This document shows, piece after piece, positions 6,244 through 63,074 of a stretch of DNA of 64,000 nucleotides (its first letter is position 1; every line of letters starts with the position of its first letter). The notes beneath the pieces are model-generated. The model ran no database searches and was not told the origin of the DNA. It worked only from the letters and a program-made list of their open reading frames with translations. A program made the position numbers and the translations under genes. The stretch is taken from NCBI GenBank assembly GCA_004298325.1, contig SCUF01000253.1, positions 6,762 through 70,761 of the forward strand, read 5' to 3'. Source of the stretch: Betaproteobacteria bacterium (GTDB taxonomy: Bacteria; Pseudomonadota; Gammaproteobacteria; Burkholderiales; SG8-39).

Positions 6244-6247
6244 GACG

Positions 6248-36216: not shown

Positions 36217-36600
36217 CTTTTCAGGCGGCGCGACGGAAGCCTTGGAGCGCCAGGCGTCGCCGGACTTGCAGCACAGACCGCTGGGGTTTACCGTCCGGTA
36301 GTCGTGGGGTCGCCATACTAATCAATATGTTATACAAGGACCGGCGGCTGATTTGGCCGTCGTGTCTAGTCCGTGTCTAGAAAGCCTTGCGGAAAACAGC
36401 GGACGGCGCTCGCGAGGAACGTCAGCTATCTAATTTCTTCGTTCGCTCGCCAGCGCACCGCGAGCAGCACGGGCCGGGGTAGGGGTGCCCATCCTTTTTC
36501 GGCCTCGACCCCGTCCCGGCGTTCGTAGGCCCCATCACCTGTACATGGAGCTGCATTTTTAGAGATTTCGGCACCAAGTTACAACGGACAAGGAATGTAG

Positions 36601-37152
36601 CTATCGTCTGATGTCTAAAATTCTTAGCGCGGTCATCGCTGCGCTATTGTTCGCTATCCTGAGTTCTTGTCGCTTTGCTTCCCAAATCTTCTGCTCGGTT
36701 TTCGCATCCCTGCACAGAGCGAACAGCTCTCTACTCAAGCGATCGGCTGTTAACAATTCGTGAGAGAGATCACTGCTCTCAAAGTAAACGTCCAGTCTGT
36801 TTCTCGCACTCCGGAACGAATCGACGGCCTCGCCTTGGAAAAGATTGATCGCCGTTTGATCGTCGTTGCTGGGTTCTGGCTTCTGATATGCACGGCACGC
36901 ATCGTACGCTAGGGCTGTGTAACGATAGCTGGCAGCTAAAAACTCATCCACGACGCGAGCTCGTATTGCCAGGACGGTCTTGCTCAACTCAGCGCGATAT
37001 TCGATGTCCTTTTCCCAAGGCTTGACGACCCATAAAATTGCTAGAGCACCCGCAACTCCTAGCAGCACAGTGCGGGCAGTTTCCGTCCAGAACTTCTTTG
37101 ATTCGTCCCACTGCGCCATCCGCAGATCTCCCAATTTATTAACTGTGAGCAC
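36601..37152 (-). CDS. hypothetical membrane-anchored protein (183 aa)
   Basis: ORF track; TM VLLGVAGALAILWVV; low-GC codon usage. Confidence 0.55.
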   Translation of the reverse strand: MLTVNKLGDLRMAQWDESKKFWTETARTVLLGVAGALAILWVVKPWEKDIEYRAELSKTVLAIRARVVDEFLAASYRYTALAYDACRAYQKPEPSNDDQTAINLFQGEAVDSFRSARNRLDVYFESSDLSHELLTADRLSRELFALCRDAKTEQKIWEAKRQELRIANNSAAMTALRILDIRR

Positions 37153-37303
37153 GCTAGCAATGCTCGCACCTTCGTCTGATGTGTCGTTTGCGCTTGAAAT
37201 TCTCAGCAGGTAAGCGTTAGCATATTCTTATAGAAAGAGTTATTGTGCGGTGGGAGCATTCTGTTGCTGCTTTCTGTCCGCTCAGCTACTCAGGGGCCAG
37301 ACG

Positions 37304-37870
37304 ATGTCATGGATGAACTCCGAGCTGATCCTCTACCACGGATGTGATTGGGATTCAGCAGACGCGATCTGCCGTCCTTCGTCAACTTTTCCTGTCCACT
37401 CTATAAACCTTATGCTGTGTACACCGCACACCGACTTCGGCAAAGGTTTCTATGCCACCACCAACCTTCATCAGGCAAAGAATTGGGCGAACGATCGCAC
37501 GACGCTGCTGAGGATTACTGATCCCCAAAAGTTCGCGGCTGTTGTAGAGATTGCGGTTGAGCGAGAGCACCTCGCTGCTAACGCGAGTGTGTTGTGCTTC
37601 GTAACGGAAGGTAGCGCAGCGACTTCGGACTTTTGGGAGTTTATAAAGCATTGCCGTACGGGTAGTACTACTTCTGGCCATGAGCTAAGTGCGAACAAGA
37701 AGGATCGGATGTATGACTTAGTATTTGGCCCCGTGTCGCTTTGGACCCAAACGCTGGTCATCAAGGATTGCGACCAAATTAGCTTCCATACTCAAGACGC
37801 TCTCAAAGCGATCAAGAAAGCAACGGTCAAGTACCAATGCACTCAGACTAACCCCCACTTTATTGTCTAG
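37304..37870 (+). CDS. DUF3990-like protein
   Basis: LILYHGC...HTDFGKGFYATTNLHQAKNWAN...MYDLVFGPV...DQISFHTQDALKAIK matches the DUF3990 motif series. Confidence 0.65.
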   Translation: MSWMNSELILYHGCDWDSADAICRPSSTFPVHSINLMLCTPHTDFGKGFYATTNLHQAKNWANDRTTLLRITDPQKFAAVVEIAVEREHLAANASVLCFVTEGSAATSDFWEFIKHCRTGSTTSGHELSANKKDRMYDLVFGPVSLWTQTLVIKDCDQISFHTQDALKAIKKATVKYQCTQTNPHFIV

Positions 37871-37877
37871 AACGGCT

Positions 37878-38201
37878 ATGGCTACGCTTAACGACGACGA
37901 GTTATCGCAGTTCCTGAAAGAGTCATATGTCGACGATTACTGGGACATGGTTAGGAGTACATTTGAGCGCGTGTTCGATGAGAGCGATTTCGCTCTCGTT
38001 GATCGACTCCGCGACGCCATCCTTAAGCGCCCGGAGAAAGAACAAGTACTTTTTTACCATGCCGAGCCATTAGCCGTGGCGGCCGGTTTGCTCGGGGCGC
38101 GTGCAGGCCAACTCAAGGCTTCGCAATATACAGAGTACGCGATGCTGGTGAAAGCGAAGGGGCGAGATCGACCCGCGGGCACTCTAACTCTAGTCCCGTA
38201 A
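37878..38201 (+). CDS. small helical partner protein of the DUF3990-like gene
   Basis: ATG 8 nt after the upstream stop; 107 aa. Confidence 0.55.
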   Translation: MATLNDDELSQFLKESYVDDYWDMVRSTFERVFDESDFALVDRLRDAILKRPEKEQVLFYHAEPLAVAAGLLGARAGQLKASQYTEYAMLVKAKGRDRPAGTLTLVP

Positions 38202-38382
38202 AGTTCGGCGCGAAGTGCTGCAATGGGTTCTCCCGGTCCCCGCTCCCGAAAGCGGCCATTCGTCGCTGCCGATGATTTGAACCTCTGTTACGCGCCATGA
38301 GCGTCCACTGACTACCATCAGCATCCGGCTTTTGCGCCCTATGGTTACGAGGCATAGAGTGTGGCCACAAGGATGCTGAACC

Positions 38383-38814: not shown

Positions 38815-39450
38815 AATCGGTCCCCATGCGAGCAAGACTTGCATTCCGTGCGGCCCAGATCGCGCACGAGCGGATGATCTCCTACTTGCGGGACGTGCCG
38901 GCAGGAGTCGTAGAGGCGGACCGCGGCAAAGCCGAGCAGCTAACGCGGGACTGCGAAAATACTTTCTAGGAATGGATGGCAGCCTGCAGAGAGTTCACGG
39001 TCCACTAGCCGCGAGAGCAGTGGCTCCGCGAGCAGCTAGCCAAAGATCAAGACGGCCCACGGTCGCGCGACCGATGCGGAGCGCAGGAAGTGGAACGAGC
39101 GTCGACAGAGACGTCCGCAACGCCAACGCATGACGTCACGGACCGAGTGGCGTGAGCGGATCGACGATTCGAACTCAGGCTCAGTCATTGTGACGATCGC
39201 CATTCGCAACGTTGCTCCACTCGAGATCGAGATTCCCAGATGGAAATGGAATCCATTCTTGTTCTTGGCTGTTCTCGATCGATATCCCGCGGCTGGGGCC
39301 TGTGCACTAGGTCCACACACACGTGCCCTCATTGCGTAGCTTGGCTCGAGGCACCGGCAATGAGGCCTGGTCGGACGATTCCCGCTCCGCTTCCCAGTCT
39401 ATAGTTGCATAATCGTACGAGCGGGCTTTATCTAGTTGACGAGGCTTGCC

Positions 39451-40140
39451 ATGTACGCCGCGATTTCAGGCAAGGCAGCGCAAAAAGGGGGGTCTCGTTT
39501 CCGCGAGAAAACGGTGCGCCTTAACTATTTCACCAGCGCGCAATTTGGCCTGCAGGCGCTGAGCAAGCGTCGCATTAAGATTGCTCGACTTACCGAGCTG
39601 AATGATCCGTTTGAGTTCCTGGCAGCCGATCTATCGGACAAGAACAGTCGGACGCTTCTTCGTCAAACGAGGGCAACGCTTTCGGAGACGAAAGGAATTC
39701 TGTGTTTCAGCAGGGTTTGGAACAATCCGGTTTTGTGGGGTCACTATGCAGACAAGCACCATGGCGTCGCTCTCGGGTTCGAAGTACCGTCAACGCATGC
39801 ACATCCAATAGCGTACGTTAGCTCACGCCTTTCGTGGCCGGCCGTTATTGATGGAGCGTTCGTGTGCCGACTTCTTTTTACCAAATTTTCCCACTGGAGC
39901 TACGAAGATGAGTACCGCGTTTACGTTGACCTCGATAGTCAAGAAGGCGGACTGTACTTCGCAGATTTCTCAGAGACGTTGGCTCTGCGTCGCGTCATTG
40001 TCGGGTGTGAATCGGCACTTACGCGTGCTGATATCCGCGAAGCGTTGGGTGGCCACAGCGATATTGATGTGTTCAAAGCACGCCCCGCCTTTAAGTCCTT
40101 CCGCATCGTAAGAAACAGAGACGAGTCGCTATGGGCTTAG
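39451..40140 (+). CDS. DUF2971-like protein
   Basis: ...ARLTELNDPFEFL...GILCFSRVWNNPVLWGHYADKHHGVALGFEV...FTKFSHWSYEDEYRV... The track start TTG at 39436 is also possible. Confidence 0.7.
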   Translation: MYAAISGKAAQKGGSRFREKTVRLNYFTSAQFGLQALSKRRIKIARLTELNDPFEFLAADLSDKNSRTLLRQTRATLSETKGILCFSRVWNNPVLWGHYADKHHGVALGFEVPSTHAHPIAYVSSRLSWPAVIDGAFVCRLLFTKFSHWSYEDEYRVYVDLDSQEGGLYFADFSETLALRRVIVGCESALTRADIREALGGHSDIDVFKARPAFKSFRIVRNRDESLWA

Positions 40141-40264
40141 TGACAGGTTTGAGCGGAACGACAACCGCATCCGTCAAGGAGCCAAGCTTTGGGTCAACCC
40201 GTCCACGCGTGACCGCTGGCTGCAGGCGACCCGCATGAAGCCTCGAGCCAAGTAGGGAGCCGTT

Positions 40265-41158
40265 ATGCGAGCGTTCTGGATTTACAAATGCAATAACAAG
40301 AACGAGGAATATCAGCGCACATGGGGTGATTGGGCGGAAGTATTCGATAGCACAAAGGCTAAAGGGTGGGGCTCAACGAGCATAGTTGCCGAACTTGCCC
40401 AGGCCAAGATCCGAGATATGGTCATCGCATATCAAACGGATCGGAACGAGCTTGTCGGTGTCGCTCGCGTTGTAGGATGGAGACCTCAGGGCAGGTACAA
40501 ACGACTCGTTGTAAAGCCAATCCGGAGAATTGGCGTACGCGTCCGGCCGCTGAAGGAATCAAACGCTAAGGTCGCGCGAATTCCGGCGCTGCAGCCGGGG
40601 AGGATCGGTACGCTCTATTCGGTCTCGCGAGCAGATGCCCATACTTTGCTTCGGGCCGCCGGACTGCGTCTCGCTGAGAATGCTAATGAACCGAGCGACA
40701 ACGCTGAACGCTCAGTTCAGGGTGCCGGGTTTGGCACGCCAGAACGGAACAAGCTCGTTGAGCGAGAGGCAGTGAGACACATAAAGCGCCATTTTCGACG
40801 TCAAGGTTGGTCAGTGACGGACGTATCATCTGAGAACCGGGGTTACGATCTCCTCTGCAAGCGCCCCGGCGAGCGTAGTCACGTCGAGGTCAAGGGCGCG
40901 CGTGGTGAAGGCCAGCAATTCATCCTCACCGCTAGAGAGCTCGATACTTGGACCAAGGACAAACAGTTCGTACTCGCTTTCGTCGGTAGCGCGCTATCAG
41001 CCAAACCTTCGCTCTCGTTCTTTCCGAGCGCAGCGGCTCAACGGGAGTTTGAGTTACGTCCACTTTCTTTCATTGCACGAAGGCAGCCTAACCCCGACAT
41101 CCAAACCAGCGCCCGTAAGAGCCGCCGCCACCGAAACGGAGCCTCAAGCGCCGGATGA
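40265..41158 (+). CDS. PUA-like (EVE/ASCH-type) domain fused to a DUF3883 restriction-endonuclease-fold domain
   Basis: N-terminus FWIYKCN...IRDMVIAYQTDRNELVGVARVV...GTLYSVSRADAHTLL is an EVE-like pattern. C-terminus RGYDLLCKRPGERSHVEVKGARGEGQQFILTARELD is the DUF3883 D...EVK core. Confidence 0.65.
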   Translation: MRAFWIYKCNNKNEEYQRTWGDWAEVFDSTKAKGWGSTSIVAELAQAKIRDMVIAYQTDRNELVGVARVVGWRPQGRYKRLVVKPIRRIGVRVRPLKESNAKVARIPALQPGRIGTLYSVSRADAHTLLRAAGLRLAENANEPSDNAERSVQGAGFGTPERNKLVEREAVRHIKRHFRRQGWSVTDVSSENRGYDLLCKRPGERSHVEVKGARGEGQQFILTARELDTWTKDKQFVLAFVGSALSAKPSLSFFPSAAAQREFELRPLSFIARRQPNPDIQTSARKSRRHRNGASSAG

Positions 41159-41207
41159 CGAAAAATACGCGATCGTCTGCGGACCGCTTACATCAACAAA
41201 GCAGGCA

Positions 41208-42404
41208 ATGAACGTCGCTACTTCTTCACGCGTTGCCGTGGAGCTCTGCGCCGGATTCGGAGGAATCGGCATCGGCCTACGAGCACTCGGGTTTCACATC
41301 GCAAGAGCGTACGACTCATGGGAACAGGCAGTTTCGATTTACAACCACAACTTCGGTGACAAGGTCGCGACGACCGCCAATCTGCTGAGCGAAAAAGGCC
41401 TCCAACTTGTGGATACCGACCGCGACCGCATCGGCGACGTTGAGCTCCTCGCTGCCGGGCCGCCCTGCAAGGGTTTCAGCCAGCTTAGAAATGGTTACCA
41501 CGACGGACGTAACGGCCACAATCGCGTGCTGGCGGCCATGCCCGACTATGTTGCAATTCTCCGGCCGCGCCTTTTTCTCTTGGAGAATGTTCCGGACCTT
41601 ATAAGACATCGCGACGGAAGGACTCTCGCCGACATCTTGGAACGGCTGGAGCGGCCAGCGAAGCACCTCCGATACCGAGTCGAGTACAAGGTCTACGACG
41701 CGGCGCTCTTCGGAACGCCGCAAGCTAGACGCAGGATCTTGATCTTTGGCGTCCGCAGCGGTGCGAAGGAACGGCTCCCGGAACCCGGACCCGATCTCGC
41801 CCCACTCTTTGCGGCAGTCCGCCACCAAGGAAGGATCCCGAAGGAGTTCAACCAGTACTTAGAGGCCCTAGCGGACCCGGAGAACGCAACGCTTACCTCT
41901 GCAAGGCAAGCACTCTCCGATCTGCCTCTCCTCGGCCCAGGCGAACCAGAGGCTGAGAGACTCTATGCCTCTGAAGCAAAAAACGCGTTTCAGCGATGGG
42001 TGCGGACTGGTGCGCCCGCGAAGCTCCGTGACACTCGAACGCCGGCGGTCAATGCCGAGACTGTGAAACGCCTGCGACATGTCCCACCTGGCGGGTGCGC
42101 TAGGGTGATTCCAGAGGGGCATCTCAACGGACTCGCGAGGCGGTACGGTTCGGCCTACAGGAGGCTACACCCCGACGCCCCTTCGACCGCGCTTTCAACA
42201 AAGTACGACTGTGTCTACCACTACAAGGAGCAGCGTTCGCTATCCGTACGGGAGTACGCCCGCATTCAAGGGATTCCGGATTGCATTACATTCCCAGCGA
42301 GCCTGGTCTGTCGGCGGAGTGCGTATGAAATGATTGGCAACTCGGTGCCGCCTCTACTGATCGAACGGGTGCTCGGCCAGGCGATCGGCAACGGGAACGC
42401 CTAG
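41208..42404 (+). CDS. DNA (cytosine-5) methyltransferase
   Basis: Motifs ELCAGFGG (I), PPCKGFS (IV), ENV (VI), QARRR (VIII), GNSVPP (X). The ATG at 41208 lies within the longer track ORF 40902..42404. Confidence 0.92.
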   Translation: MNVATSSRVAVELCAGFGGIGIGLRALGFHIARAYDSWEQAVSIYNHNFGDKVATTANLLSEKGLQLVDTDRDRIGDVELLAAGPPCKGFSQLRNGYHDGRNGHNRVLAAMPDYVAILRPRLFLLENVPDLIRHRDGRTLADILERLERPAKHLRYRVEYKVYDAALFGTPQARRRILIFGVRSGAKERLPEPGPDLAPLFAAVRHQGRIPKEFNQYLEALADPENATLTSARQALSDLPLLGPGEPEAERLYASEAKNAFQRWVRTGAPAKLRDTRTPAVNAETVKRLRHVPPGGCARVIPEGHLNGLARRYGSAYRRLHPDAPSTALSTKYDCVYHYKEQRSLSVREYARIQGIPDCITFPASLVCRRSAYEMIGNSVPPLLIERVLGQAIGNGNA

Positions 42405-42405
42405 A

Positions 42406-43182: not shown

Positions 43183-43236
43183 AGAAGGGTTGTAGGGAGG
43201 AAGCCCGAACAACGAGCAGGAGGGGGGAACGTCCCG

Positions 43237-51781: not shown

Positions 51782-51783
51782 AC

Positions 51784-52965: not shown

Positions 52966-53018
52966 TCGTGGTTGTCCACAACTTCAAAACTGTCTACTTG
53001 ACGGGGAAGCTTACGCTG

Positions 53019-56000: not shown

Positions 56001-58067
56001 GACGGGCGAAAAAATTGGAATCAACACCAATAAGCCCACAAAGAGAACCACTGGTACATCCCGAATTCGCGCGATACCACGACCAACTAGCAGTGCGGTC
56101 AAACCTAACCAGAGCAATAGAGGGATGCCTGCTAAGAAAATCGGGCCAATAAGCTCTTGAATGAGCACCTGTCGTTGCGCGATTGTTTGAAGTGCCCAGA
56201 AGAGCGCACAGGTAACCATGTACACAAGAAACCACACCGCGGCGAGAATAACGCTCTTACCAGGCCGCTGCACTAGCTCCCACAGGCCCCTTGCATGCTT
56301 AAAAACGAGTTGGCGAGGAAAATTTGTTGATAGATTCGCCAACCACTGGAGACGTTCTTGTTGTGCTGTATTTAGCCGATACGTGTATCCGAACAGCGCC
56401 GCGAAAGTGAGAAACACAAGACTTACTATGAGGACAGTGCCCCAGCTTGTTGCCGGCTTGAGGCGCTCAGGTAAGTTGGGCCAGGTTTCGGGAACAAGTA
56501 TTGAAAGGAAGATGGCGACACCCCCGACAAGCACCAGATATGCTAACGAGGACCAAAGGCGACCGCGTCGCTCCTTAACCCCGATTGATATGAACCGCTC
56601 GCGGTAGAGCGTTACTATAAGAAAAAGAAAAGCTGGGGTAAGGACAAGCGTGACCGTGGAAGTTATCACTCCACGAACTGCTACTAAGTCGAGGCCGGTT
56701 GGATCTAAGGCATACCGAAAGGCTAGAAGTAGACGCAGTGCCACCACATTCCAAGCGAATGCAGCAAGTCCAGCTATCGCCCAGACGTCGCGGTCCGCCA
56801 ACGTACGGACGCAGATGAGTAGTCCCAGCCCGAACGTCACTAGCGCGCATGCTAGCGCGATACTGAGTTCGTTCGTGCGCGGCAGATCTCGAATAGTCGC
56901 CAACTGGACGGCAATAGGCCCAAGCGGAACTCCGATCGAGGAGGTAACTCCATGCGGCTGAAAGCGGTCAACCCTCAGTGGTTGGACAGGACCTGGCGGG
57001 AGGGGGATGATCTCCCGTTCTGGTTGCCAACTACCCGGACCGGTGAAGATAGTTCGTCCGCTTTGCTCGCGCATCATGGTCGGGACATGAATGCCCCCGG
57101 CTGCATCTCCAAACGGCAGTTCAAATACTTTGTCCTGCGGCCGCGGCTCGCCAGTTATTACGAGCGGGAATGGCTTACTTGCATCAGAGACGTCCGGCAA
57201 AGGGATTGCCATCCGCCAAGGCGGGAGGAATGCCGCAGACAGTACCCCTTTGTCTTCGGTGATCTCCATGACAACTAATTGCCCAGGCCAACGGACCGTG
57301 ACTTTCCCGGGTAGCTTCAGTGGCGCTGTGGCTGCCTCCGAATCGTTGGAGTTATCCAGCAAACGCAGGTCACTCTCATATCCGAAGAACTTCGTTCGGT
57401 AGGCGATTTGGCGTGTGCTAGCCCATCTTTCTAAATCAAGCGCGAGCGAGGGGTCGTGCGAGGATGTATGTGCTCGCAACGCAACAATCCTCGAATGCAT
57501 TTGAGGAAGTAGTGCTCTAACCCCACTTGGCGATGTGCGAAGCTTGATTTCGTCGATCTTTATTCCGTTACGTGAAATGACTAAAGAGGATAAGAACCAA
57601 AGCTTTCTATGCTCTAAGATAAAACCACCACTAAGGACAGGCTGACCGTCGAGAAGGGGAATTCCGTTAACAGCAGCGCCTTCTGTTTCAACCAGTCCGC
57701 CGCCACCAAGTACCTTGAGTTCCGCCTCTGTCGCGCTCTTGCTCTGTATGACGATCTTCGGAGAGAACGATCCTGTAGGCCAGCCCAGTACGGCCTGCGC
57801 ACGTCGGCCTCCGAGCTCTAATTTGTGGGACGACCCCAGAGAAGTAAGACCAACCCATGCGATCTGTGTGTGTTCACGCCAGTATGGAGATGCGGCTAGT
57901 TGTCGCCAGACAGCTCCACTCGAAATGAGGACTACAAGAATTGCACCCACGATCGAGAATCGAGACACTTGCTTCGCTACGTCAGGCCCTCTAGAGAGGA
58001 GTACGAGAATGGTCGGGAAGCAGGCATACAGCAGTAACGGACCTAGTAGAAATAAGAGCAGGGTCAT
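53019..58067 (-). CDS. 1682-aa fusion protein: N-terminal TM + unknown domain, polytopic SEDS (RodA/FtsW/SpoVE-like) domain, extra TM, class-B-PBP-like transpeptidase domain
   Basis: SEDS C-terminal signature PQHVLQYDSTFSFFIVSEHGLVGG...NVGALPFTGRNLPLLSVNS (around 55.3-55.6 kb). PBP motifs SATK (54096-54107), SDN (53910-53918) and KTG (53232-53240), each verified against the DNA. Confidence 0.85.
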   Translation of the reverse strand: MTLLLFLLGPLLLYACFPTILVLLSRGPDVAKQVSRFSIVGAILVVLISSGAVWRQLAASPYWREHTQIAWVGLTSLGSSHKLELGGRRAQAVLGWPTGSFSPKIVIQSKSATEAELKVLGGGGLVETEGAAVNGIPLLDGQPVLSGGFILEHRKLWFLSSLVISRNGIKIDEIKLRTSPSGVRALLPQMHSRIVALRAHTSSHDPSLALDLERWASTRQIAYRTKFFGYESDLRLLDNSNDSEAATAPLKLPGKVTVRWPGQLVVMEITEDKGVLSAAFLPPWRMAIPLPDVSDASKPFPLVITGEPRPQDKVFELPFGDAAGGIHVPTMMREQSGRTIFTGPGSWQPEREIIPLPPGPVQPLRVDRFQPHGVTSSIGVPLGPIAVQLATIRDLPRTNELSIALACALVTFGLGLLICVRTLADRDVWAIAGLAAFAWNVVALRLLLAFRYALDPTGLDLVAVRGVITSTVTLVLTPAFLFLIVTLYRERFISIGVKERRGRLWSSLAYLVLVGGVAIFLSILVPETWPNLPERLKPATSWGTVLIVSLVFLTFAALFGYTYRLNTAQQERLQWLANLSTNFPRQLVFKHARGLWELVQRPGKSVILAAVWFLVYMVTCALFWALQTIAQRQVLIQELIGPIFLAGIPLLLWLGLTALLVGRGIARIRDVPVVLFVGLLVLIPIFSPVALLDVGGIFATLAYVLPLVFVLLYARPVRVGLYALGAAFIALVLLVALAIASVSILPDFGVKALERGISRLLVFRGGDNAQQLLPFTQLSRDVGQGVPLQSLQNSIEHTWENAAIAHLGGWLGMGFGNAPTRRSMVPQHVLQYDSTFSFFIVSEHGLVGGLALLTMYALPFILISVSARRRFDIGHCIALVIAAGLLNEALIQAAMNVGALPFTGRNLPLLSVNSTTDAIRCTLLLCLAAQAICWRQTGERTGFSPPYGFSILHHGRAGDAEPENRSSWACAIMLGALTCVTFAILCVLIPAYGILKNNTLKEPFGWDRLILHIEDLIQRGLIEWDSKTKTVSLRNLRLTLSGETFLEQEVTRFNSLPLAERLDITPDLQAFLSRVRTIAEYDSAFAAMAASQTPPEARRPLLFRVTGGHARDSEATAQQVERLEVNPAFNIRLQLTPDQHHQEIPSVLVRGTARDRVKSATDLQFIGPAWVNGRWRTAVDLTIDIPWSRQLAAGLRDEWHRLGGAEATRHYGKLSFDVDLQNAAMDFTMRKGRLRHEQLLAMRRTDVRQALPPRIALSILEVPSGQVLALGGWPRMSPFRTWGQNPGGWLPSASWLESTAPTAIVLRYGGDRNFDLIEMGSATKPLFAAAVLRRTPQLDKYLRTRGTSGEKQENSVFGIPIRGRAWPVPADGRWRDVTGYMAVSDNRYETRLAFLGLAQFSNGNPVEDPKAGVSPSHGESIRTPPSPWRRYPAFPPELGFSAAQPNAITNLHQTELASNFFSMFRVRRNDEDPGRIKRSFWTLQDDADPTNHLSDRLLYLSPPSPNFRLDLIHNPREYVSLALGGAENRWANVDFAAAFASVVIGKPIAAHLPSGSVRHSESRASFEDAARRLRPGLAAVAQSGGTAYKSLQATKALDALRNLGVRIYAKTGTLSTDDGRTETSRLVVALIRWKNEIRGEIESGVVISLVAEHAHTGFASLRVGEFITENRETLQRILRTSK

Positions 58068-60739
58068 GAGCTTCTAGGTCTGCCCTTTGTTAGTCGTTTT
58101 GCGCGGCAAAGAAACCGACTTATGAGGTCGCTATCGCCATTTCGGCTGGTACTGTCGCGATTACTTTTAGTCTTTTGCTTTACATGTTTGGAAGAGCTTT
58201 CTGGTGCGGATTCGTAGGAATCGCTCAACAAAGAGGGTTGACCCGTTCCACCAAGCCGAGTCTCCCACGATCGAAATTGCTCTTCCCAGTCCAAGCGAAA
58301 ATCGCGGCCGCTCAATCCCAGCAATCTGTTACCCAGCTGGTCACATGCACTTCTTGATGCCGGTTGGGTGACGACGTAATCGGTGGCCATACGCAGGAAG
58401 ATAGGTGTCTGGACAACTGCATGACCGCGTAGGGCTTCGGTCAACTGGCGATAGAGTCCTCCCAACAGATCTACGCCCCCGTCACAAAGCGCTAGGAGAA
58501 TCTTGGGAAGTGTTTCGCATCCCTCTTTGGTTCCAAGCCCTTCTAGTACTACTTCGATTGTCTCGGCACCAAGCTTGAGCTCATGGCCCATGCGTCCTGA
58601 CACCGTTGCATTAATCGCCTCCCGTAAAGCTTGTCTATGCGCGGTGTCGGGCTTGTCTACCTGCAACCGTTGGAGCTTGCGGCGGGTCTCTGCGTCTATG
58701 CTCGGCCGTGTTTCCACCAACAATCGCGCAACAATTGACTTCCACGTTTCTAGATCGAGTGTCTTGCGCTCGATGCTTGTGAAGTCCCCATACACGTATG
58801 TTTCAAGAACTTTCTCCCAATAGATTTCTGGCGCTTGAATCTTCAGCCAAGCCCGCTGGGCGCGCCCGGACGGCAACATTCTGTCTTTCGTAACCCAAGA
58901 AACAAGCACGGGGACTGCCTCGGGACCCACGATTCGCTCAATGGTCCTGAAATCCGCCGCTACTTGCTGAGATACATTTGAAAGCAGTTGACGCAATTCA
59001 TCCAAGAGATTGTCCCGCGTTTGGATCTTCGTCGATTGTTTCGTTCCGGAAAATTCCGAAGGCAATCCCCTAAGTGCGTGATCAATTGAGAGCAAGGGTG
59101 TCCATGCATCACCGACTAGCTGAGCAATTTGCAGCTTCGCCGAAATAGGCAACAACGTTCTAATGCTCGTGGAAGCGGAAGCAACAAGCCAGGCGCGCGC
59201 ATAGTCTCCGACGACAGCACTTCGGGACGCGGCGAAGTCAGCGCTGCAAGCTTCCAGGGCTGCCTGCGTCGTCGCTGTTGCTAGTGGTGCATGCGCTGAT
59301 GCAAGCCACACGCCGCCTGGATCTGCTCCAAGGGCAACGTAGTCGAGTAGGGCATCGAAATCATCGATGATGCGCTCCTTGACTACCTCGGCCAATTCGT
59401 TAAGAAGTGCGACGGACAATTTGTAAATCTTCTGCACCTCAACTATCGGCCAAGCGGGATCGTGGGCCGCTATACGACTGCGAATCGCCTTGCCTACAAG
59501 ATATTCGACGTGCTCATCCGAGTAGCCGTTGACCCGCAGATGAGTGATAGCCTCGATCAAATTCTGCGGAAACCCTGAATTGCCCTCAAGTGCAACCTGT
59601 CGAAGCCAGACCGCAACAATCCATTCCGCCGGGGGACCAGGCTTCATGGCCGTTAGTGCGGAAAGCGTCGAGCCTCGCGCTTGTAGTGCTGCTGCGAATT
59701 CTTGTGGATCGAGTCGCTGTGCCAACTCAATGTCTATGTCATCAAACGTATGACGCAGCACTATCGAGCTGATTGCTTGATTCGCGACTACCGAGCTTTT
59801 CTTGAGGGAAACAAGTAGCGCGTTTATCAATTGTTTTGACCTTGCGGTATTCGTTGTCCGCAGAAGGCGTTCGAGCTCTGCCGGATCAGCACTGATCAAC
59901 GCAGAGGTGGAAACCCGCCCTAGGGACAGAAAGACATCAATCGTTGCTGTCGGGTCAGTCCAGCTAAATACTGGTTGTGACAACAAGGAAAGATCTTCCT
60001 CACTGAAAAGACCAGCTTGTGTTGCGGAAGCGCATGCGCGAAGAATATTCAGACCTAACTGTTGAAGGTCTGTTGCTGATTCTGTTGGGAGCTCTGCGTG
60101 CTGTGCGTCATCGATTGCGAGGTGGCAGCCGAGAGCATGGGCTGTGTCGTGTCGTGCACCTAGCAGCCAACCGAATCCAGTGCGGAATGAAGTGGGAATA
60201 GTCTCGAGTTGACACGCAATCGCTCTGGGCTCGCGAGCGTTGGTCAGCTGCAGCTGACCCGCAGTAATCGTGAAGGGTTCTGTTTTGAGCGCAGAGGCCG
60301 TTATAGATGCGCCTAGCGAAGTGAAGGTGGTGTCGTCTCCCAGCGGTTCGGAGAATTCCAACGAAGTGAGTGCAGTATCTAGCGCGTCGGGACTGGAAAA
60401 TCGCTCTGGTTCAAGGAGCAGATTTCTCCAAAGCAGTGGCTGTTTCTGCAATGAAAGCATCAGCCGTCCTGCGTTCCAGCAGCAATTGCGCCATAGTTGT
60501 ACGCCTGGATCTAGCAAGAGAACGTACGCGTATCCTCCGCGATCTTGAGTGTTTTGACGTTGCCTTACTATGAGGAAAGCGAGACCATCGCGTACGCCAA
60601 CGCCCCAAGACGTTGTGCCCTCAGGCCCCAACCCTTGAGTATCCTCCATCGCAGCATTGTCATTGGCGATGTCGTCAGGCCATACGCCAACGCGTACTCG
60701 TAGGCCGAAACGCGTTCCTCCAAAGGCGAGAAGGCGCAT
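58064..60739 (-). CDS. large predicted helical protein (891 aa), unknown function
   Basis: ORF track; ATGA overlap with the downstream gene and TGATG junction with the upstream GTPase; no catalytic motif recognised. Confidence 0.75.
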   Translation of the reverse strand: MRLLAFGGTRFGLRVRVGVWPDDIANDNAAMEDTQGLGPEGTTSWGVGVRDGLAFLIVRQRQNTQDRGGYAYVLLLDPGVQLWRNCCWNAGRLMLSLQKQPLLWRNLLLEPERFSSPDALDTALTSLEFSEPLGDDTTFTSLGASITASALKTEPFTITAGQLQLTNAREPRAIACQLETIPTSFRTGFGWLLGARHDTAHALGCHLAIDDAQHAELPTESATDLQQLGLNILRACASATQAGLFSEEDLSLLSQPVFSWTDPTATIDVFLSLGRVSTSALISADPAELERLLRTTNTARSKQLINALLVSLKKSSVVANQAISSIVLRHTFDDIDIELAQRLDPQEFAAALQARGSTLSALTAMKPGPPAEWIVAVWLRQVALEGNSGFPQNLIEAITHLRVNGYSDEHVEYLVGKAIRSRIAAHDPAWPIVEVQKIYKLSVALLNELAEVVKERIIDDFDALLDYVALGADPGGVWLASAHAPLATATTQAALEACSADFAASRSAVVGDYARAWLVASASTSIRTLLPISAKLQIAQLVGDAWTPLLSIDHALRGLPSEFSGTKQSTKIQTRDNLLDELRQLLSNVSQQVAADFRTIERIVGPEAVPVLVSWVTKDRMLPSGRAQRAWLKIQAPEIYWEKVLETYVYGDFTSIERKTLDLETWKSIVARLLVETRPSIDAETRRKLQRLQVDKPDTAHRQALREAINATVSGRMGHELKLGAETIEVVLEGLGTKEGCETLPKILLALCDGGVDLLGGLYRQLTEALRGHAVVQTPIFLRMATDYVVTQPASRSACDQLGNRLLGLSGRDFRLDWEEQFRSWETRLGGTGQPSLLSDSYESAPESSSKHVKQKTKSNRDSTSRNGDSDLISRFLCRAKRLTKGRPRSS

Positions 60740-62139
60740 CAGCTAAAACACCATTGCACAAAATCGTCGAGACCTCGAATCACAGGGTCCGGATTCTTGA
60801 GGTTAACCCCACCTTGGGGCCAAACAAAGAATATTCGCTCTATTGTTGCACCGTCTTTCCCGGCGGCCATTACTTCATCGCAAAGTAGCGATAGTCCGCC
60901 GCGTTTACCGATCGCAGACAACGCTTTCTCGAAGCCGTGCCTATCGAGTTTTGCATCCGTAGGCCAAAGATCACATTTGGTCACAATAAGGCAACATCGA
61001 GGCCGGAGATGACGCGGAAGTGCTTTCACATGAGTCAAACGATTCCACGCTACGTTCAAGCTAAGTCTCTCCGCAGCGTCTGGCGCGAGGTCCGTCGCCT
61101 GTAGGAGGATGGCGATGACGTCAACAGTCGTGTCCAGCTGTTCGAGTAATTCGCTGTGCGCCACCTCGGCTGCCTCACCAGCCACGTCATAGAGTACTAG
61201 CGTACGGTATTGGTTCAGTTTTGTGAGGTTTGAGTGCGGCTGGAACGCTGTAGGCACGTCATCATCACCACCCTTTCGCAGAGCCTCAGCCAGCTCCCTA
61301 ACTAGGTCGCGCCCGTGTGCCCATAACGACCGCGTGGACTCAACCTTCTTAGGAAGTGCCTCCTCACTCTTCGGTGCTTCCGGCGGTTGAATATCTTTGG
61401 GAGTCGCTTCCGGTGGAAAGAACGCTGCTTTCAAGTTCCGGCGAGGTGTGCTGGGGGTGAGCCACGTCGTGAAGAGCTGATTCAGGCGCATCAGCTCACG
61501 GAGCCTTAGTGTGCGAAGAAATTCACTAGCATTTGCTTGAACTGCCGCCCCTTCAGCAGGGTAGCAGTATATGAAGTCTTCGATGGGTCGGAGGTCGCGT
61601 GAAAAACCCTTCTGATCCAACGCATGCAATGCAAAAAAGGTCTTTCCCACCCCTTTTGCGCCAGTGAAATTGACAACGACCGACCGTGAAGGACTCCCTA
61701 AGCGTCGACCGTGCAGTAGTAAGGCCGACGGGAACCACATTTCTTGTGGAGCTGGACCGTCACCAACTTGCTTTTGCAACTTTCGCAGCGCCGTTATTTC
61801 CCAATGACTCACTCGAACCGAGCGAATGACTTTATCTTTGGGATCTTCTGTAGAGAATTGCTCAGGTACATCTAACTTGGGCGGTGCGTTCTTTGAGATT
61901 ACAACAAATGGATTCTTCCCATATTCGCAATTCACATGTCGATATAGCAACCCTTTGCCACCTATAAATTCAAAGCTATTACAGCGATCACCGCAAAGGA
62001 GGCTGCCATCACTCATCGATTGCGTGAAGCTTACAATCGCGGAGTTCTTCGGATGCTGAGGACAGAACCGCTCCAACTTATCCTCTTCGCCTAGAACTAT
62101 GAGGCAGAGGGGGCAGCGATACACGGTTTCAGTGTCCAT
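60739..62139 (-). CDS. Zn-ribbon + P-loop GTPase-like protein (466 aa)
   Basis: N-terminus CPLC...CPQH and further Cys pairs. GAKGVGKT (G1/Walker A), LYDVAGE (G3), VTKCD (G4, [NT]KxD). Confidence 0.8.
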   Translation of the reverse strand: MDTETVYRCPLCLIVLGEEDKLERFCPQHPKNSAIVSFTQSMSDGSLLCGDRCNSFEFIGGKGLLYRHVNCEYGKNPFVVISKNAPPKLDVPEQFSTEDPKDKVIRSVRVSHWEITALRKLQKQVGDGPAPQEMWFPSALLLHGRRLGSPSRSVVVNFTGAKGVGKTFFALHALDQKGFSRDLRPIEDFIYCYPAEGAAVQANASEFLRTLRLRELMRLNQLFTTWLTPSTPRRNLKAAFFPPEATPKDIQPPEAPKSEEALPKKVESTRSLWAHGRDLVRELAEALRKGGDDDVPTAFQPHSNLTKLNQYRTLVLYDVAGEAAEVAHSELLEQLDTTVDVIAILLQATDLAPDAAERLSLNVAWNRLTHVKALPRHLRPRCCLIVTKCDLWPTDAKLDRHGFEKALSAIGKRGGLSLLCDEVMAAGKDGATIERIFFVWPQGGVNLKNPDPVIRGLDDFVQWCFS

Positions 62140-62876
62140 TCAAGCTCCCGGCGTTCTTGTACTCACCTTGGCCTCACAGGGCAAGCAAGAGGCGTACTCA
62201 CTGATTTGTCGAGCGCTCATGCCCCTGCATGAAGAGCATCACCAGTGGCTCCACCTGTTCCGACGCAGGCGCGAGCATACTTTCTTCGAGAAACAGTAGA
62301 TCTCATCTTCGCCCTCCGCCTTGCGCAAACGACTGCATGGCCAGGGCTTGGATGTTGCGCGAGTGGTCTGGTACGAGTGGATTTGCACACATTGCTACGG
62401 GGACGAAGGCAGGTTGTGCCGAATCGCAGAGCAGTGACTTGCTGGAGCGGTTGTAGCGATTAGCAGCGAAGTAGCTACTGCTTTCTTGCGGCTCGAGCGG
62501 TTTGCCAAGTGACTAGATCCGTGTCCAGTCGAATGACGTGACAAGGAGCATAAAGAGCTACCAAACGAGCGGCCCGAGTTACTCCTTGTCCTACTTAAGG
62601 GGCTGCTTCCCCCTTCTACAGCCCTACCCAACGCCCCATGTGGCGCAGCCCCAAACAGCCATCGGTACGAGCCAGCTGACATTGCCCCCCCCGGATGCAA
62701 CGTACCCTATCATAGCCCTCAATACAGGTTCGGGTCGCAAATGCGGCTTTCTCATTTTGGGGAAGGGTCAAGTTGTTCTGTTGAAGGGTTTGACCTGCCC
62801 AGGCTCGCAGGACCAATCGTAAGTTGAGAGAATGGCTCCCGTAGCACAATAATTCGCAACCTGTTGGGATGGCCGC

Positions 62877-63074
62877 ATGAAACATTCAATTATCGTGCCG
62901 CTGCTTCTGTTGACGGGATGTACATCAACGCCGACGCGGCCGTCAGAAGCCGACGCGCATCTCACTACCGAGTTCGGCCAATGCCGACCCGAAATTGCCG
63001 TGCCACCGCCGGCTAAGAATGCGGATTCTGGGCTGGATTGCAATATTCGGGGAGAGGCACACCGTGAACGGTAA
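62877..63074 (+). CDS. small lipoprotein candidate (65 aa)
   Basis: MKHSIIVPLLLLTGCTS (lipobox LLTGC). Confidence 0.4.
   Translation: MKHSIIVPLLLLTGCTSTPTRPSEADAHLTTEFGQCRPEIAVPPPAKNADSGLDCNIRGEAHRER

What the first reader, a model, noticed from the sequence alone, without database searches (positions are those of the whole stretch)
36217..62900. ~26-kb lower-GC island at the lysis end of the prophage, stacked with conflict genes; boundaries unresolved
Seen in sequence:
- Base composition and codon usage change abruptly after the lysis-operon terminator (36216) and recover near ~62.9 kb.
- No integrase or tRNA is visible.
- A DUF5681 gene and a decayed coding stretch suggest remnants of another mobile element.
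- Two weak candidate boundary repeats exist. TCCCGGCGTTC occurs at 36514-36524 and 62146-62156, bracketing the low-GC genes almost exactly. CTAGTCCGTGTCTAG (36366-36380, part of a tandem CGTGTCTAG x2 at 36361-36380) resembles CTAGATCCGTGTCCAG (62513-62528).

Established knowledge: prophage ends are known hotspots for defence cargo.

Inference: the island is either phage-borne cargo lying between the lysis genes and attR, or an older island that the phage integrated next to. The short repeats could be chance.
Basis: partly seen in the sequence, partly recalled or inferred. Interest (0 to 1): 0.55.

Follow-up and report, generated by a model that had tools for sequence, protein, structure and literature searches.

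The report
Three-part defence island beside a prophage
The lower-GC stretch after the prophage's lysis genes is real, but it is three separately acquired gene cassettes packed end to end: small candidate defence genes, a complete Druantia-type anti-phage system, and a rare GTPase-linked cell-wall synthase operon. This is an ordinary kind of defence island whose third cassette is the unusual part.

Summary
The composition drop is confirmed. GC falls from 0.675 to 0.55 at about 36,310, and GC3 from 0.83-0.93 to 0.52-0.68. "Recovery" at 62.9 kb is a small but real step, 0.54 to 0.60 only.

The island is three blocks, not one unit:
- A (36.3-41.2 kb): DUF3990 pair, DUF5681, DUF2971/PDC-S31 and a NOV_C protein.
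- B (41.2-53.0 kb): a Druantia type IV-like cassette of C5 methylase, EndoIII-type glycosylase, coiled-coil membrane protein, DruL, DruE and DruK. It shares 65-77% DNA identity with cassettes in unrelated phyla, only over 41,229-52,902.
- C (53.0-62.1 kb, minus strand): a rare conserved triad of a zinc-ribbon DO-GTPase2-like GTPase, an unannotated 891-aa partner, and a 1,682-aa SEDS (FtsW/RodA)-class B PBP fusion.

Both candidate boundary repeats are at chance level. The window holds no integrase, tRNA or tRNA fragment. The source is a 71-kb contig of a Betaproteobacteria MAG. The phage has no close relative in any collection searched, so attR could not be located.

Size, mosaic composition and the self-contained Druantia cassette favour an island adjoining the prophage over packaged cargo. 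That step is inferred, not shown.

The parts
36173..36222 (+). Intrinsic terminator closing the prophage lysis operon (hairpin plus T-run)
   Evidence: Inverted repeat I3, 13-nt arms, 92% complementary, 13-nt loop; the T-run is seen in the sequence
36223..36600 (.). Non-coding junction. It holds the main compositional change point (about 36,310) and a tandem CGTGTCTAG pair with 11-bp spacing (36361-36380). This is the most likely place for attR, which was not shown.
   Evidence: no RNA-gene fragment
36601..37152 (-). Block A: 172/183-aa protein with one predicted TM helix; no family match
   Evidence: the gene call in L126 is 172 aa
37304..37870 (+). Block A: DUF3990 protein (PADLOC candidate PDC-M13)
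   Evidence: Pfam PF13151 E = 2e-14; PDC-M13B 1.1e-16
37878..38201 (+). Block A: 107-aa partner gene immediately after DUF3990; no family match
   Evidence: called as a gene in L126
38383..38814 (+). Block A: DUF5681 protein. The family is also found in phages, so it may be a remnant of another mobile element.
   Evidence: PF18932 E = 3e-8; phrog_15261 5.7e-9
38815..39435 (.).
39436..40140 (+). Block A: DUF2971 protein (single-gene defence candidate PDC-S31)
   Evidence: PDC-S31 5.6e-23; PF11185 2.7e-5; phrog_1762 1.6e-22
40265..41158 (+). Block A: 297-aa protein with a C-terminal NOV_C (DUF3883) domain; N-terminal domain unassigned
   Evidence: PF13020 6.2e-12; no PDB sequence match for the N-terminus
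41202..42404 (+). Block B: C5 cytosine DNA methyltransferase (DruM-like)
   Evidence: PF00145 2.5e-49; MTase_II 1.5e-59 and DruM2 5.3e-54; a C5 methylase lies near DruE in 47 of 80 loci
42406..43182 (+). Block B: endonuclease III-family (HhH-GPD, Fe-S) DNA glycosylase that travels with the methylase
   Evidence: PDB EndoIII 1.1e-23, ROS1 2e-10, Mig.MthI 1.5e-8; PF00730; found in 25 of 80 loci
43237..45276 (+). Block B: 679-aa membrane-anchored protein. It has an N-terminal TM helix, a TolA-like charged coiled-coil repeat, and a conserved C-terminal domain of about 435 aa. It sits in the DruF position.
   Evidence: C-terminal part conserved in 68 of 80 DruE loci; TM and repeats; no PADLOC or Pfam hit
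45273..46220 (+). Block B: DruL
   Evidence: DruL4 4.3e-23; also matches the C-terminus of DruF2 at 8e-11; in 76 of 80 loci
46217..51781 (+). Block B: DruE, a 1,854-aa YprA-family SF2 helicase
   Evidence: DruE4 1723 bits, E = 0; DEAD and Helicase_C; 80 loci in many phyla
51784..52965 (+). Block B: DruK, a PD-(D/E)XK (Cas4-like) nuclease
   Evidence: DruK 8.9e-26; PF12705 1.8e-16; in 25 of 80 loci
53019..58067 (-). Block C: 1,682-aa fusion protein. Order of parts: 2 TM helices, a beta-rich domain of unknown fold (aa ~50-400), a SEDS glycosyltransferase (aa ~400-930, catalytic Asp833), a TM helix (971-989), and a class B PBP transpeptidase (S1321-xx-K1324, S1384-D-N, K1610-T-G).
   Evidence: FtsW PDB 1.3e-7; TIGR02614 1.3e-9; motif conservation; AF2 plus Foldseek to PBP3/PBP2, E = 3.5e-11, prob 1.00; N-domain model without a PDB match; TM scan
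58064..60739 (-). Block C: 891-aa cytoplasmic protein of an unannotated family; always lies between the GTPase and the SEDS-PBP fusion
   Evidence: No Pfam, NCBIfam or PADLOC hit; orthologues in L122, L123, L131, L132; 253 cluster representatives; one member fused to DO-GTPase2
60739..62139 (-). Block C: 466-aa zinc-ribbon plus TRAFAC GTPase, DO-GTPase2-like (Walker A GAKGVGKT, Walker B YDVAGE, G4-like VTKCD)
   Evidence: Alignment A6 invariants; homology to the L123 protein that passes PF19993; u466 itself has no Pfam hit
62140..62925 (.). ORF-poor right junction, ending at a small GC step (0.538 to 0.601 at 62,925)

Best explanation
The stretch from about 36.3 to 62.9 kb is not one element. 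It is a mosaic accessory (defence) island built from three independently acquired cassettes that abut each other with gaps of 55 nt or less. It begins in the 380-nt non-coding stretch just after the prophage's lysis terminator.

Block A (36.3-41.2 kb) holds small single-gene or two-gene candidate defence/toxin genes and a DUF5681 remnant.

Block B (41.2-53.0 kb) is a complete Druantia type IV-like system that moves between phyla as a unit.
- A C5 methylase marks the host's own DNA.
- An EndoIII-family glycosylase probably repairs the T:G mismatches caused by 5mC deamination, or otherwise handles the modified base.
- A membrane-anchored coiled-coil protein, DruL, the DruE helicase and the DruK PD-(D/E)XK nuclease would act on invading DNA.

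Block C (53.0-62.1 kb, opposite strand) is a rare fixed triad. A cytoplasmic zinc-ribbon GTPase of the DO-GTPase2 kind and an 891-aa partner most likely switch a membrane SEDS-class B PBP fusion, a self-contained peptidoglycan polymerase-crosslinker, through its cytoplasmic N-terminal domain.

Most likely the island is chromosomal DNA (a hotspot or an older island) lying next to the prophage, with attR in 36.2-36.6 kb, rather than DNA packaged by the phage.

Shown: the composition steps, the identities of the cassettes, the unit-wise transfer of block B, and the conservation of the triad.
Inferred: all mechanisms, and the 'adjacent, not cargo' conclusion.
For: Composition
- Change points at 36,310, 41,410 and 52,900, with segment GC of 0.675, 0.552, 0.621 and 0.544.
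- GC3 by gene: phage 0.79-0.93, block A 0.56-0.68, block B 0.60-0.675, block C 0.52-0.53.

Block B
- PADLOC: DruE4 at E = 0, DruL4 4e-23, DruK 9e-26, DruM-like methylase 5e-54.
- Among 80 DruE loci from many phyla, DruL occurs in 76, the p679 C-terminus in 68, a methylase in 47, DruK in 25 and the glycosylase in 25. No other island gene occurs in any of them.
- blastn homology of 65-77% is confined to 41,229-52,902.

Block C
- The same gene order appears in four further unrelated contexts.
- The SEDS Asp and the PBP SxxK/SDN/KTG motifs are invariant.
- The fold match to PBP3/PBP2 has E = 3.5e-11.
- GTPase motifs and the link to PF19993.
- u466 and u891 have no TM segment, and the topology puts the N-domain in the cytoplasm.

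Adjacent rather than cargo
- The phage part already measures at least 37.1 kb (window -920 to 36,216). Its lambda-type TerL/portal/protease/capsid module is a type that typically packages about 38-50 kb (established knowledge). Adding 26.6 kb would give at least 63.8 kb.
- A strong terminator closes the phage late operon, and the first island gene converges on it.
- The junction is confirmed by a second assembly.
Against: - No att site, integrase, tRNA or significant direct repeat delimits the island.
- No host housekeeping gene separates phage and island, and the host backbone GC is unknown. 'Lower GC' is therefore measured against the phage only.
- Some block A families also occur in phages: DUF5681 and DUF2971 have PHROG hits. 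Prophage ends are known to carry defence cargo.
- The capsid-capacity argument is an inference from module type, not a measurement.
- For block C, no experiment or published description links a DO-GTPase to a SEDS-PBP protein. u466 itself does not reach the Pfam DO-GTPase2 threshold, and u891 matches no GAP1 model.
- Outside this window its neighbours are not recognisable defence genes, apart from generic kinases and one conjugative element.
Confidence: 0.6

Rival explanations
1. The whole 26.6 kb is phage-borne cargo lying between the lysis genes and an attR at or beyond about 62.9 kb. It would be packaged and spread by the phage.
For: - It directly follows the last phage gene with no host gene between.
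- Prophage ends are known defence-cargo hotspots (established knowledge).
- DUF5681 and DUF2971 families occur in phages.
- There is a small GC step at 62,925.
Against: - It would make the prophage at least 63.8 kb with a lambda-type head module (inference).
- The three blocks have different composition.
- The Druantia cassette is found in 80 genomes without this phage's lysis genes.
- The candidate flanking repeats are at chance level.
- GC never returns to the phage level.
Confidence: 0.1
2. Only part of block A is phage moron cargo, for example the TM protein and the DUF3990 pair at 36.6-38.2 kb, or everything up to 41.2 kb. attR would lie in the ORF-poor 38.2-39.4 kb stretch or at the A/B junction, with blocks B and C chromosomal.
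For: - Small, lower-GC, independently transcribed genes after a lysis cassette are typical morons (established knowledge).
- ORF-poor stretches at 38.2-38.4 and 38.8-39.4 kb could hold an att site.
- Block A is only 5 kb, which would fit in the capsid.
Against: - The strongest composition break is at 36,310, not further right.
- Three of the six block A proteins tested have no PHROG match.
- There is no DNA similarity to any phage.
- No att-like repeat was detected.
Confidence: 0.2
3. The island is the body of a separate integrative element (genomic island or ICE remnant). Its own integrase and attachment site would lie beyond the right end of the window, and the phage later inserted at its left edge.
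For: - GC stays low (0.60) to the end of the window.
- In L132 the same triad sits directly next to a T4SS coupling protein and a MobL relaxase.
- The DUF5681 remnant.
Against: - No integrase, relaxase, transposase or tRNA is found anywhere in 36-64 kb.
- The three-block mosaic argues for stepwise accretion rather than a single element.
Confidence: 0.25
4. Block C is not a conflict system. It would be an accessory, horizontally mobile peptidoglycan synthase: a by-pass SEDS-bPBP regulated by a GTPase, used for morphogenesis, envelope-stress survival or beta-lactam tolerance, and sitting in the island by chance.
For: - Natural SEDS-bPBP fusions are described as morphogenetic enzymes, one of them flanked by a Ser/Thr kinase and phosphatase (PMC12516126).
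- A Hanks kinase follows the triad in L123 and L132.
- In L131 the neighbours are metabolic genes, and a class A beta-lactamase gene lies two genes downstream.
- The catalytic residues are intact.
Against: - DO-GTPases have so far been described only in predicted conflict systems (PMC7159879).
- Here the operon lies against a Druantia cassette and has the lowest GC3 of the window.
- It is next to conjugation genes in L132.
- The family is very patchy and rare: 9 close SEDS-fusion homologues among 5.8 billion proteins.
Confidence: 0.4

Closest known systems
Druantia type IV (PADLOC; Payne et al. 2021, PMC8565338) and Druantia type II (Doron et al. 2018)
   Same: - The DruE helicase matches at full length (DruE4 1723 bits, DruE2 1574 bits).
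- DruL matches.
- A large protein sits in the DruF position upstream of DruL.
- The DruK nuclease is present.
- The distribution is patchy and spans many phyla.
   Different: - Type IV was defined as lacking DruM. Here a DruM-like C5 methylase is part of the transferred cassette, and a C5 methylase lies near DruE in 47 of 80 related loci.
- An EndoIII-family glycosylase accompanies the methylase.
- The DruF-position protein matches no PADLOC DruF model.
- DruG of type II is absent.
GTPase-centric (DO-GTPase plus GAP1) conflict systems of Kaur, Burroughs, Iyer and Aravind 2020 (PMC7159879)
   Same: - A TRAFAC GTPase with a conserved Glu after Walker B and an N-terminal zinc ribbon.
- A large partner gene immediately downstream, fused to the GTPase in one family member.
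- A membrane-proximal third component.
   Different: - There is one GTPase gene, not a paralogous pair.
- The partner matches no GAP1 Pfam model.
- The third component is fixed (a SEDS-bPBP fusion in 5 of 5 contexts) rather than a variable effector.
- The paper never mentions FtsW, PBP or peptidoglycan synthesis as a component.
Natural SEDS-class B PBP fusion proteins ('bifunctional class B PG synthases'; Microlife 2025, PMC12516126)
   Same: - GTase (FtsW/RodA) followed by a TM helix and a transpeptidase in one chain.
- All catalytic motifs are present.
- A Ser/Thr kinase lies next door in some loci.
   Different: - About 1,700 aa against about 950 aa.
- An extra 400-aa N-terminal region with a beta-rich domain of unmatched fold.
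- Extra TM helices.
- The transpeptidase is too divergent for the Pfam model.
- It is obligatorily linked to a GTPase and an 800-1,140-aa partner.
- It is found in an accessory island and next to conjugation genes.
Defence islands and defence cargo at prophage ends (e.g. P2/P4 hotspots; lambda moron regions)
   Same: Several unrelated defence or candidate defence cassettes are clustered, with atypical composition, directly beside a prophage end.
   Different: At 26.6 kb it is much larger than typical phage cargo. No att site, integrase or conserved flanking genes define a hotspot here.
C5 methylase with a companion mismatch-repair enzyme (Dcm/Vsr; M.MthTI with the Mig.MthI glycosylase)
   Same: An EndoIII/MutY-family Fe-S glycosylase is encoded right after, and inherited together with, a C5 methylase. 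It shows sequence similarity to Mig.MthI (1kea, 1.5e-8).
   Different: It is closer to Deinococcus EndoIII (1e-23) than to Mig. Substrate specificity is untested. PADLOC labels the family as a type II nicking endonuclease.

Membership tests
Druantia type IV (PADLOC definition) | DruE helicase present | tested here: met
   DruE4 model, E = 0, 1723 bits, full length
Druantia type IV (PADLOC definition) | DruL present next to DruE | tested here: met
   DruL4 4.3e-23; the gene overlaps the DruE start; in 76 of 80 related loci
Druantia type IV (PADLOC definition) | DruF present | tested here: inconclusive
   The 679-aa protein holds the position, and its C-terminal 435 aa are conserved in 68 of 80 loci. 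It matches no PADLOC DruF model. DruL matches the C-terminus of DruF2.
Druantia type IV (PADLOC definition) | Lacks DruM and DruG | tested here: not met
   A DruM-like C5 methylase (DruM2 5.3e-54) is inside the transferred cassette. DruG is indeed absent.
Druantia (any type) | Protects against phage | not testable with these tools
   Needs cloning and plaque assays
DO-GTPase / GAP1 GTPase-centric conflict system | TRAFAC GTPase of the DO-GTPase family (Glu after Walker B) | tested here: inconclusive
   The motifs GAKGVGKT, YDVAGE and VTKCD are invariant in the family. The orthologue in L123 passes PF19993 (38.6 bits against 27). Two other orthologues fall below threshold, and u466 has no hit.
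DO-GTPase / GAP1 GTPase-centric conflict system | N-terminal zinc ribbon(s) on the GTPase | tested here: met
   Invariant CPLC, with C26/H29 and C49/H68/C71
DO-GTPase / GAP1 GTPase-centric conflict system | GAP1 protein (GAP1-N/M/C domains) downstream | tested here: not met
   u891 and 49 relatives match no Pfam family at E <= 1e-3, and u891 none at E <= 10. Only the position, and one fusion to a DO-GTPase2 domain, agree.
DO-GTPase / GAP1 GTPase-centric conflict system | Variable effector component | tested here: not met
   The third gene is the same SEDS-PBP fusion in all 5 contexts seen
SEDS (FtsW/RodA/SpoVE) glycosyltransferase | Sequence match and catalytic Asp in the extracellular loop | tested here: met
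   PDB FtsW 1.3e-7; TIGR02614 1.3e-9, far below the equivalog cut-off; Asp833 invariant in 9 of 9; 6 of 8 homologues carry PF01098
Class B PBP transpeptidase | PBP fold with SxxK, SxN and KTG motifs | tested here: met
   AF2 pLDDT 80-96 in the domain. The Foldseek top 50 hits are nearly all class B PBPs (PBP3/FtsI, PBP2, SpoVD), E down to 3.5e-11, prob 1.00. The motifs are invariant in 8 of 8. There is no Pfam PF00905 hit.
Class B PBP transpeptidase | Binds beta-lactam / cross-links peptidoglycan | not testable with these tools
   Needs Bocillin labelling or an in-vitro lipid II assay
Integrative genomic island / prophage cargo | Atypical composition relative to flanks | tested here: met
   It is measured only against the phage on the left, and the right flank rises only to 0.60.
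Integrative genomic island / prophage cargo | Integrase and tRNA or another att target | tested here: not met
   None in the window
Integrative genomic island / prophage cargo | Flanking direct repeats above chance | tested here: not met
Integrative genomic island / prophage cargo | Empty site in related genomes / packaged in virions | not testable with these tools
   The source genome is not in the GTDB set and the phage has no close relatives. Induction is needed.

The most novel reading that the evidence does not exclude
Block C (53,019-62,139, minus strand) would be a previously undescribed kind of GTPase-switched conflict system whose output is peptidoglycan synthesis. A zinc-ribbon DO-GTPase2-like switch and an unannotated partner of about 900 aa would control a dedicated 1,700-aa SEDS-class B PBP fusion. 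On infection or envelope attack the cell would locally rebuild or reinforce, or else fatally mis-build, its wall. The module is mobile: it is found in a defence island here and beside conjugation genes elsewhere.
Probability: 0.3. Interest if true: 0.75.

Novelty: new member of a known kind. Interest (0 to 1): 0.42.

Why it matters
As a whole, this is one more mosaic defence island beside a prophage. That is useful for annotation but not surprising.

Two points go further.
1. The Druantia cassette shows that many "type IV" loci carry a DruM-like C5 methylase and an EndoIII-type glycosylase as part of the transferred unit. This blurs the type II/IV boundary and gives a testable self-marking component.
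2. The GTPase / unknown partner / SEDS-bPBP triad is a conserved, mobile and essentially unannotated module. It links a conflict-system GTPase family to a complete peptidoglycan synthase. If it is defensive, it would be a new effector logic (wall synthesis). If not, it is a new regulated by-pass cell-wall synthase that could bear on beta-lactam tolerance.

Tried and rejected
Reaching the integrase and attL
- Exact-protein look-ups of left-edge genes failed twice.
- A third look-up gave a Logan contig that extends only 920 nt left of the window, into a ParB-like gene.
- The NCBI MAG contig (70,999 bp) is not indexed.
- The ParB query found nothing in the GTDB genomes.

Finding related phages to map the homology breakpoint
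- megablast and blastn against INPHARED: no near match; only about 70% identity over the amidase gene.
- TerL by tblastn: at most 46%.
- Amidase in IMG/VR: at most 52%.
- J protein in IMG/VR and in JGI metagenomes: at most 37%.
- All are too distant to be useful.

Boundary features
- Boundary repeats: at chance level.
- Truncated tRNA or tmRNA at the boundaries: none. The Pxr hit at 17 bits is noise.
- Decayed mobile-element genes in 38.2-39.45 kb and 62.1-64 kb: no ORF with a match and no DNA similarity to phages or plasmids.
- Logan contig break at 63,679 as a sign of a variable junction: breaks also occur at 7,953 and 20,501 without any in-window repeat, so this is uninformative.

Domain guesses
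- My guess that the u1682 N-terminal domain is FHA-like: the model is confident but has no PDB fold match. Rejected.
- My by-eye 'EVE' label for the N-terminus of the NOV_C protein: no support. Dropped.

Triad context and family links
- Variable-effector architecture for the triad: the u891 relatives P0011 and P0012 sit in the same triad, not with other effectors.
- Defence neighbours of the triad elsewhere: only generic Hanks kinases hit PADLOC.
- Context of a distant u891 relative: the contig was too short.
- Family profile against PDB sequences: it recovers only SEDS, not PBP. The PBP assignment needed the structure model.

Full report
OBSERVATION

The window's left 36 kb is a genuine lambda-like siphovirus prophage.
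- It has a repressor (5077-5574, minus strand), TerL, portal, protease, major capsid protein, tape measure, J-like protein, tail fibre, amidase and spanins.
- Its late operon ends in a hairpin plus T-run at 36173-36222.

Directly after this the composition changes.
- 1-kb GC drops from 0.66-0.74 to 0.50-0.65.
- An annotation-free likelihood segmentation places the strongest change point of the whole window at 36,310 (LLR 636).
- GC3 falls from 0.79-0.93 in phage genes to 0.52-0.68 in island genes.
- A second assembly of the same run (Logan contig, window 20,501-43,386, 0 mismatches) crosses the junction, so it is not a binning or assembly chimera.

The claimed recovery at about 62.9 kb is only partial.
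- There is a statistically real step at 62,925 (0 of 300 block shuffles reach it).
- GC rises only from 0.538 to 0.601, and the window ends 1.1 kb later.
- Nothing in the window is a certain host core gene, so the island is 'lower GC' relative to the phage, not demonstrably relative to the host.

BOUNDARY MARKERS

- No tRNA and no Rfam family.
- No truncated tRNA or tmRNA in either boundary zone, even with permissive settings.
- No integrase in any Pfam-annotated gene call or in my scans.
- TCCCGGCGTTC does occur exactly twice. However, a shared 11-mer between a 600-nt zone and a 2.1-kb zone arises in 25% of shuffles, and the left zone has 12-15-nt exact matches scattered over the window.
- The second repeat needs an indel. 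Its 10-mer core with one mismatch or fewer occurs 4 times against 2.8 expected.
- Both repeats are therefore at chance level.
- The tandem CGTGTCTAG pair with 11-bp spacing at 36361-36380 is real and could be a protein-binding site. It has no significant partner.

THE ISLAND IS THREE CASSETTES

Segmentation gives further change points at 41,410 and 52,900, with segment GC of 0.552, 0.621 and 0.544.

Block A (36.3-41.2 kb)
- A one-TM protein with no family match.
- A DUF3990 protein (PDC-M13) followed by a 107-aa partner.
- A DUF5681 protein.
- A 620-nt ORF-poor stretch.
- A DUF2971 protein (PDC-S31).
- A protein with a C-terminal NOV_C/DUF3883 domain.
- DUF5681 and DUF2971 also have PHROG families; three other block A proteins tested do not.
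- The block has no DNA similarity to phage or plasmid records.

Block B (41.2-53.0 kb)
- C5 methylase (DruM2 5e-54).
- EndoIII-family Fe-S glycosylase (PDB EndoIII 1e-23, ROS1 2e-10, Mig.MthI 1.5e-8).
- A 679-aa protein with an N-terminal TM helix, a TolA-like charged coiled-coil repeat and a conserved C-terminal domain.
- DruL (4e-23), DruE (E = 0, 1723 bits) and DruK (9e-26).
- A scan of one genome per GTDB species found 141 DruE relatives. In the best 80, from many phyla, DruL is present in 76, the C-terminal part of the 679-aa protein in 68, a C5 methylase in 47, DruK in 25 and the glycosylase in 25. None of the other island genes, nor the phage lysis genes, is present in any of them.
- The closest loci are MAGs labelled Steroidobacteraceae, Planctomycetia, Thermoanaerobaculia and Deltaproteobacteria. 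They have the identical gene order and 65-77% DNA identity, confined to window 41,229-52,902.
- Block B is thus a self-contained, horizontally transferred cassette whose edges coincide with the composition steps.
- It fits PADLOC's Druantia type IV (DruE, DruF, DruL; Payne 2021), with two differences. A DruM-like methylase, which type IV was defined as lacking, belongs to the unit. The DruF-position protein matches no DruF model.

Block C (53,019-62,139, minus strand)

This three-gene operon had no Pfam or PADLOC hit at first.

u466
- It has an invariant CPLC zinc ribbon, Walker A G-x-x-x-VGKT, Walker B YD-x-AGE and a VTKxD motif.
- Its orthologue in an Acidobacteria genome passes Pfam's DO-GTPase2 threshold, and two other orthologues hit below threshold.
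- These are the features Kaur et al. 2020 give for DO-GTPases of 'GTPase-centric' conflict systems: Glu after Walker B, an N-terminal zinc ribbon and a partner gene downstream.

u891
- It belongs to an unannotated family of 253 cluster representatives in an exhaustive HMMER search.
- Of 50 members scanned, none has a Pfam domain except one that also carries a DO-GTPase2 domain.
- It matches no GAP1 model.

u1682
- It matches FtsW/RodA over aa 685-927 (PDB 1.3e-7, TIGR02614 1.3e-9) with the catalytic Asp invariant.
- Its C-terminal domain has invariant SxxK, SDN and KTGT motifs.
- That domain folds with pLDDT 80-96 into a class B PBP transpeptidase. Foldseek hits PBP3/FtsI and gonococcal PBP2 at E = 3.5e-11, probability 1.00.
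- The N-terminal 400 aa give a confident beta-rich model with no PDB match.
- By hydropathy, this N-terminal domain, u466 and u891 are cytoplasmic and the PBP domain is periplasmic.

Conservation and context
- The triad recurs in the same order in four other contexts: 454-939-1691 aa; DUF4407-621-1140-1817-kinase; 424-832-1682; and 471-906-1710-kinase.
- The last of these lies directly after a T4SS coupling protein and a MobL relaxase.
- Only 9 close homologues of the fusion exist among 5.8 billion proteins.
- Natural SEDS-bPBP fusions are known (117 in InterPro, about 950 aa), but not this long form and not linked to a GTPase.

SOURCE

- The self-hits are NCBI proteins EPO27_10755, EPO27_10760 and EPO27_10765 of a 'Betaproteobacteria bacterium' MAG, on a 70,999-bp contig. 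At most 7 kb of the contig lies outside the window.
- The genome is not in the GTDB representative set or in the gene-position index.

CARGO OR NEIGHBOUR?

Direct proof was out of reach. attL and the integrase are beyond the left edge: the leftward early operon continues into a ParB-like gene at window 837 to -782. The phage has no close relative anywhere I could search.

The indirect evidence favours an island adjoining the prophage.
- The phage part is already at least 37.1 kb with a lambda-type head module. Another 26.6 kb would give at least 63.8 kb.
- The late operon ends in a strong terminator, with the first island gene converging on it.
- The island is a three-part mosaic of different compositions.
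- Block B travels on its own.

Against this:
- No host gene separates phage and island.
- Two block A families occur in phages.
- Prophage ends do carry defence cargo.

My probabilities are about 0.6 for 'adjacent island, attR in 36.2-36.6 kb', about 0.2 for part of block A being phage morons, and about 0.1 for the whole island being cargo.

MECHANISMS (INFERRED)

Block B: the methylase marks self DNA. The glycosylase probably limits 5mC-deamination damage, as Vsr and Mig do next to other C5 methylases. DruE with DruL, the membrane-anchored coiled-coil protein and the DruK nuclease act on invading DNA. Recent work on type III describes DruE as a helicase-nuclease that engages ssDNA intermediates (abstracts listed).

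Block C: the GTPase and u891 act as a cytoplasmic switch on the N-terminal domain of the SEDS-PBP fusion and turn a private peptidoglycan synthase on or off. Whether this serves defence, envelope repair or beta-lactam tolerance is open.

VERDICT

The finding is real and more structured than described, but as an island it is an ordinary member of a known kind. The boundary repeats should be dropped. The most interesting content is the GTPase-SEDS-PBP triad, which deserves its own follow-up.

Noticed in passing
window 53019-62139 (minus strand); also L122 5801-15076, L123 4602-15454, L131 6742-15547, L132 6567-15878: A rare conserved three-gene module: a zinc-ribbon DO-GTPase2-like GTPase, an unannotated 800-1,140-aa partner, and a ~1,700-aa fusion of an unknown beta-rich domain, SEDS and a class B PBP with all catalytic motifs intact. 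I found no description of it in the papers I read (PMC7159879, PMC12516126). In two loci a Hanks kinase follows it, and in L132 it lies next to conjugation genes.
   Followed up: yes
window 41202-43182 and 25 of the 80 DruE loci (e.g. L043 4882-6845, L052 4803-6787): A C5 methylase and an EndoIII-family Fe-S glycosylase are inherited as an adjacent pair at the head of Druantia type IV-like cassettes. This is reminiscent of Dcm/Vsr or M.MthTI/Mig. It also conflicts with the definition of type IV as lacking DruM.
   Followed up: partly
window 43330-43760: The 679-aa Druantia-associated protein starts with a TM helix and a highly charged, internally repeated coiled-coil (EAQRQAEEAR units; exact DNA repeats 294 nt apart, e.g. 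43357 and 43651). The repeat breaks the independent Logan assembly between 43,386 and 43,688. Only the C-terminal ~435 aa are conserved in other genomes.
   Followed up: partly
window 36361-36380: A tandem CGTGTCTAG pair with 11-bp (one helical turn) spacing lies about 50 nt right of the main composition break. It could be a protein-binding site, for example integrase arm-type sites or an operator. No significant further copies occur in the window or in L041.
   Followed up: partly
window 1-999 and L041 7117-8736: The long plus-strand ORF at 148-999 is spurious. The real gene there is a 539-aa ParB_N/HTH_ParB protein on the minus strand that runs off the left edge of the window. It is part of the prophage's leftward early operon, along with a DNMK-like kinase and others.
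   Followed up: partly
window 5000-6300: The GC dip to 0.57 inside the prophage coincides with the immunity region: a divergent repressor (5077-5574, minus strand; GC3 0.66) and a Cro/CII-like gene. This is a second, smaller patch of atypical composition within the phage.
   Followed up: no
L042-L121 (80 loci): DruE cassettes with 84-87% protein identity (best segment) and about 75% DNA identity to the window occur in MAGs labelled Dehalococcoidia, Planctomycetia, Thermoanaerobaculia, Steroidobacteraceae and Deltaproteobacteria. This points to very recent inter-phylum transfer, or in part to mis-binning of a mobile element.
   Followed up: no
window 40265-41158: A 297-aa protein with a NOV_C (DUF3883, restriction-endonuclease-like) C-terminal domain and an unassigned N-terminal domain lies 44 nt upstream of the C5 methylase. 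It is not part of the transferred Druantia cassette. It may be a stand-alone nuclease-type defence gene.
   Followed up: partly
window 62877-63074 and 63722-63952: Two small ORFs lie in the right flank. One is a 65-aa protein with a lipoprotein-type signal (LLLTGC). The other is a 76-aa protein with two CxxC pairs (zinc-ribbon-like). Neither has a family match, and the DUF1330 gene (63019-63468, GC3 0.75) lies between them.
   Followed up: no
L131 18364-18499 and L123/L132 kinase genes: In other genomes the triad's neighbours include a class A beta-lactamase gene two genes downstream (L131) and Hanks Ser/Thr kinases immediately downstream (L123, L132). This hints at a cell-wall stress or antibiotic context rather than phage defence.
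   Followed up: partly
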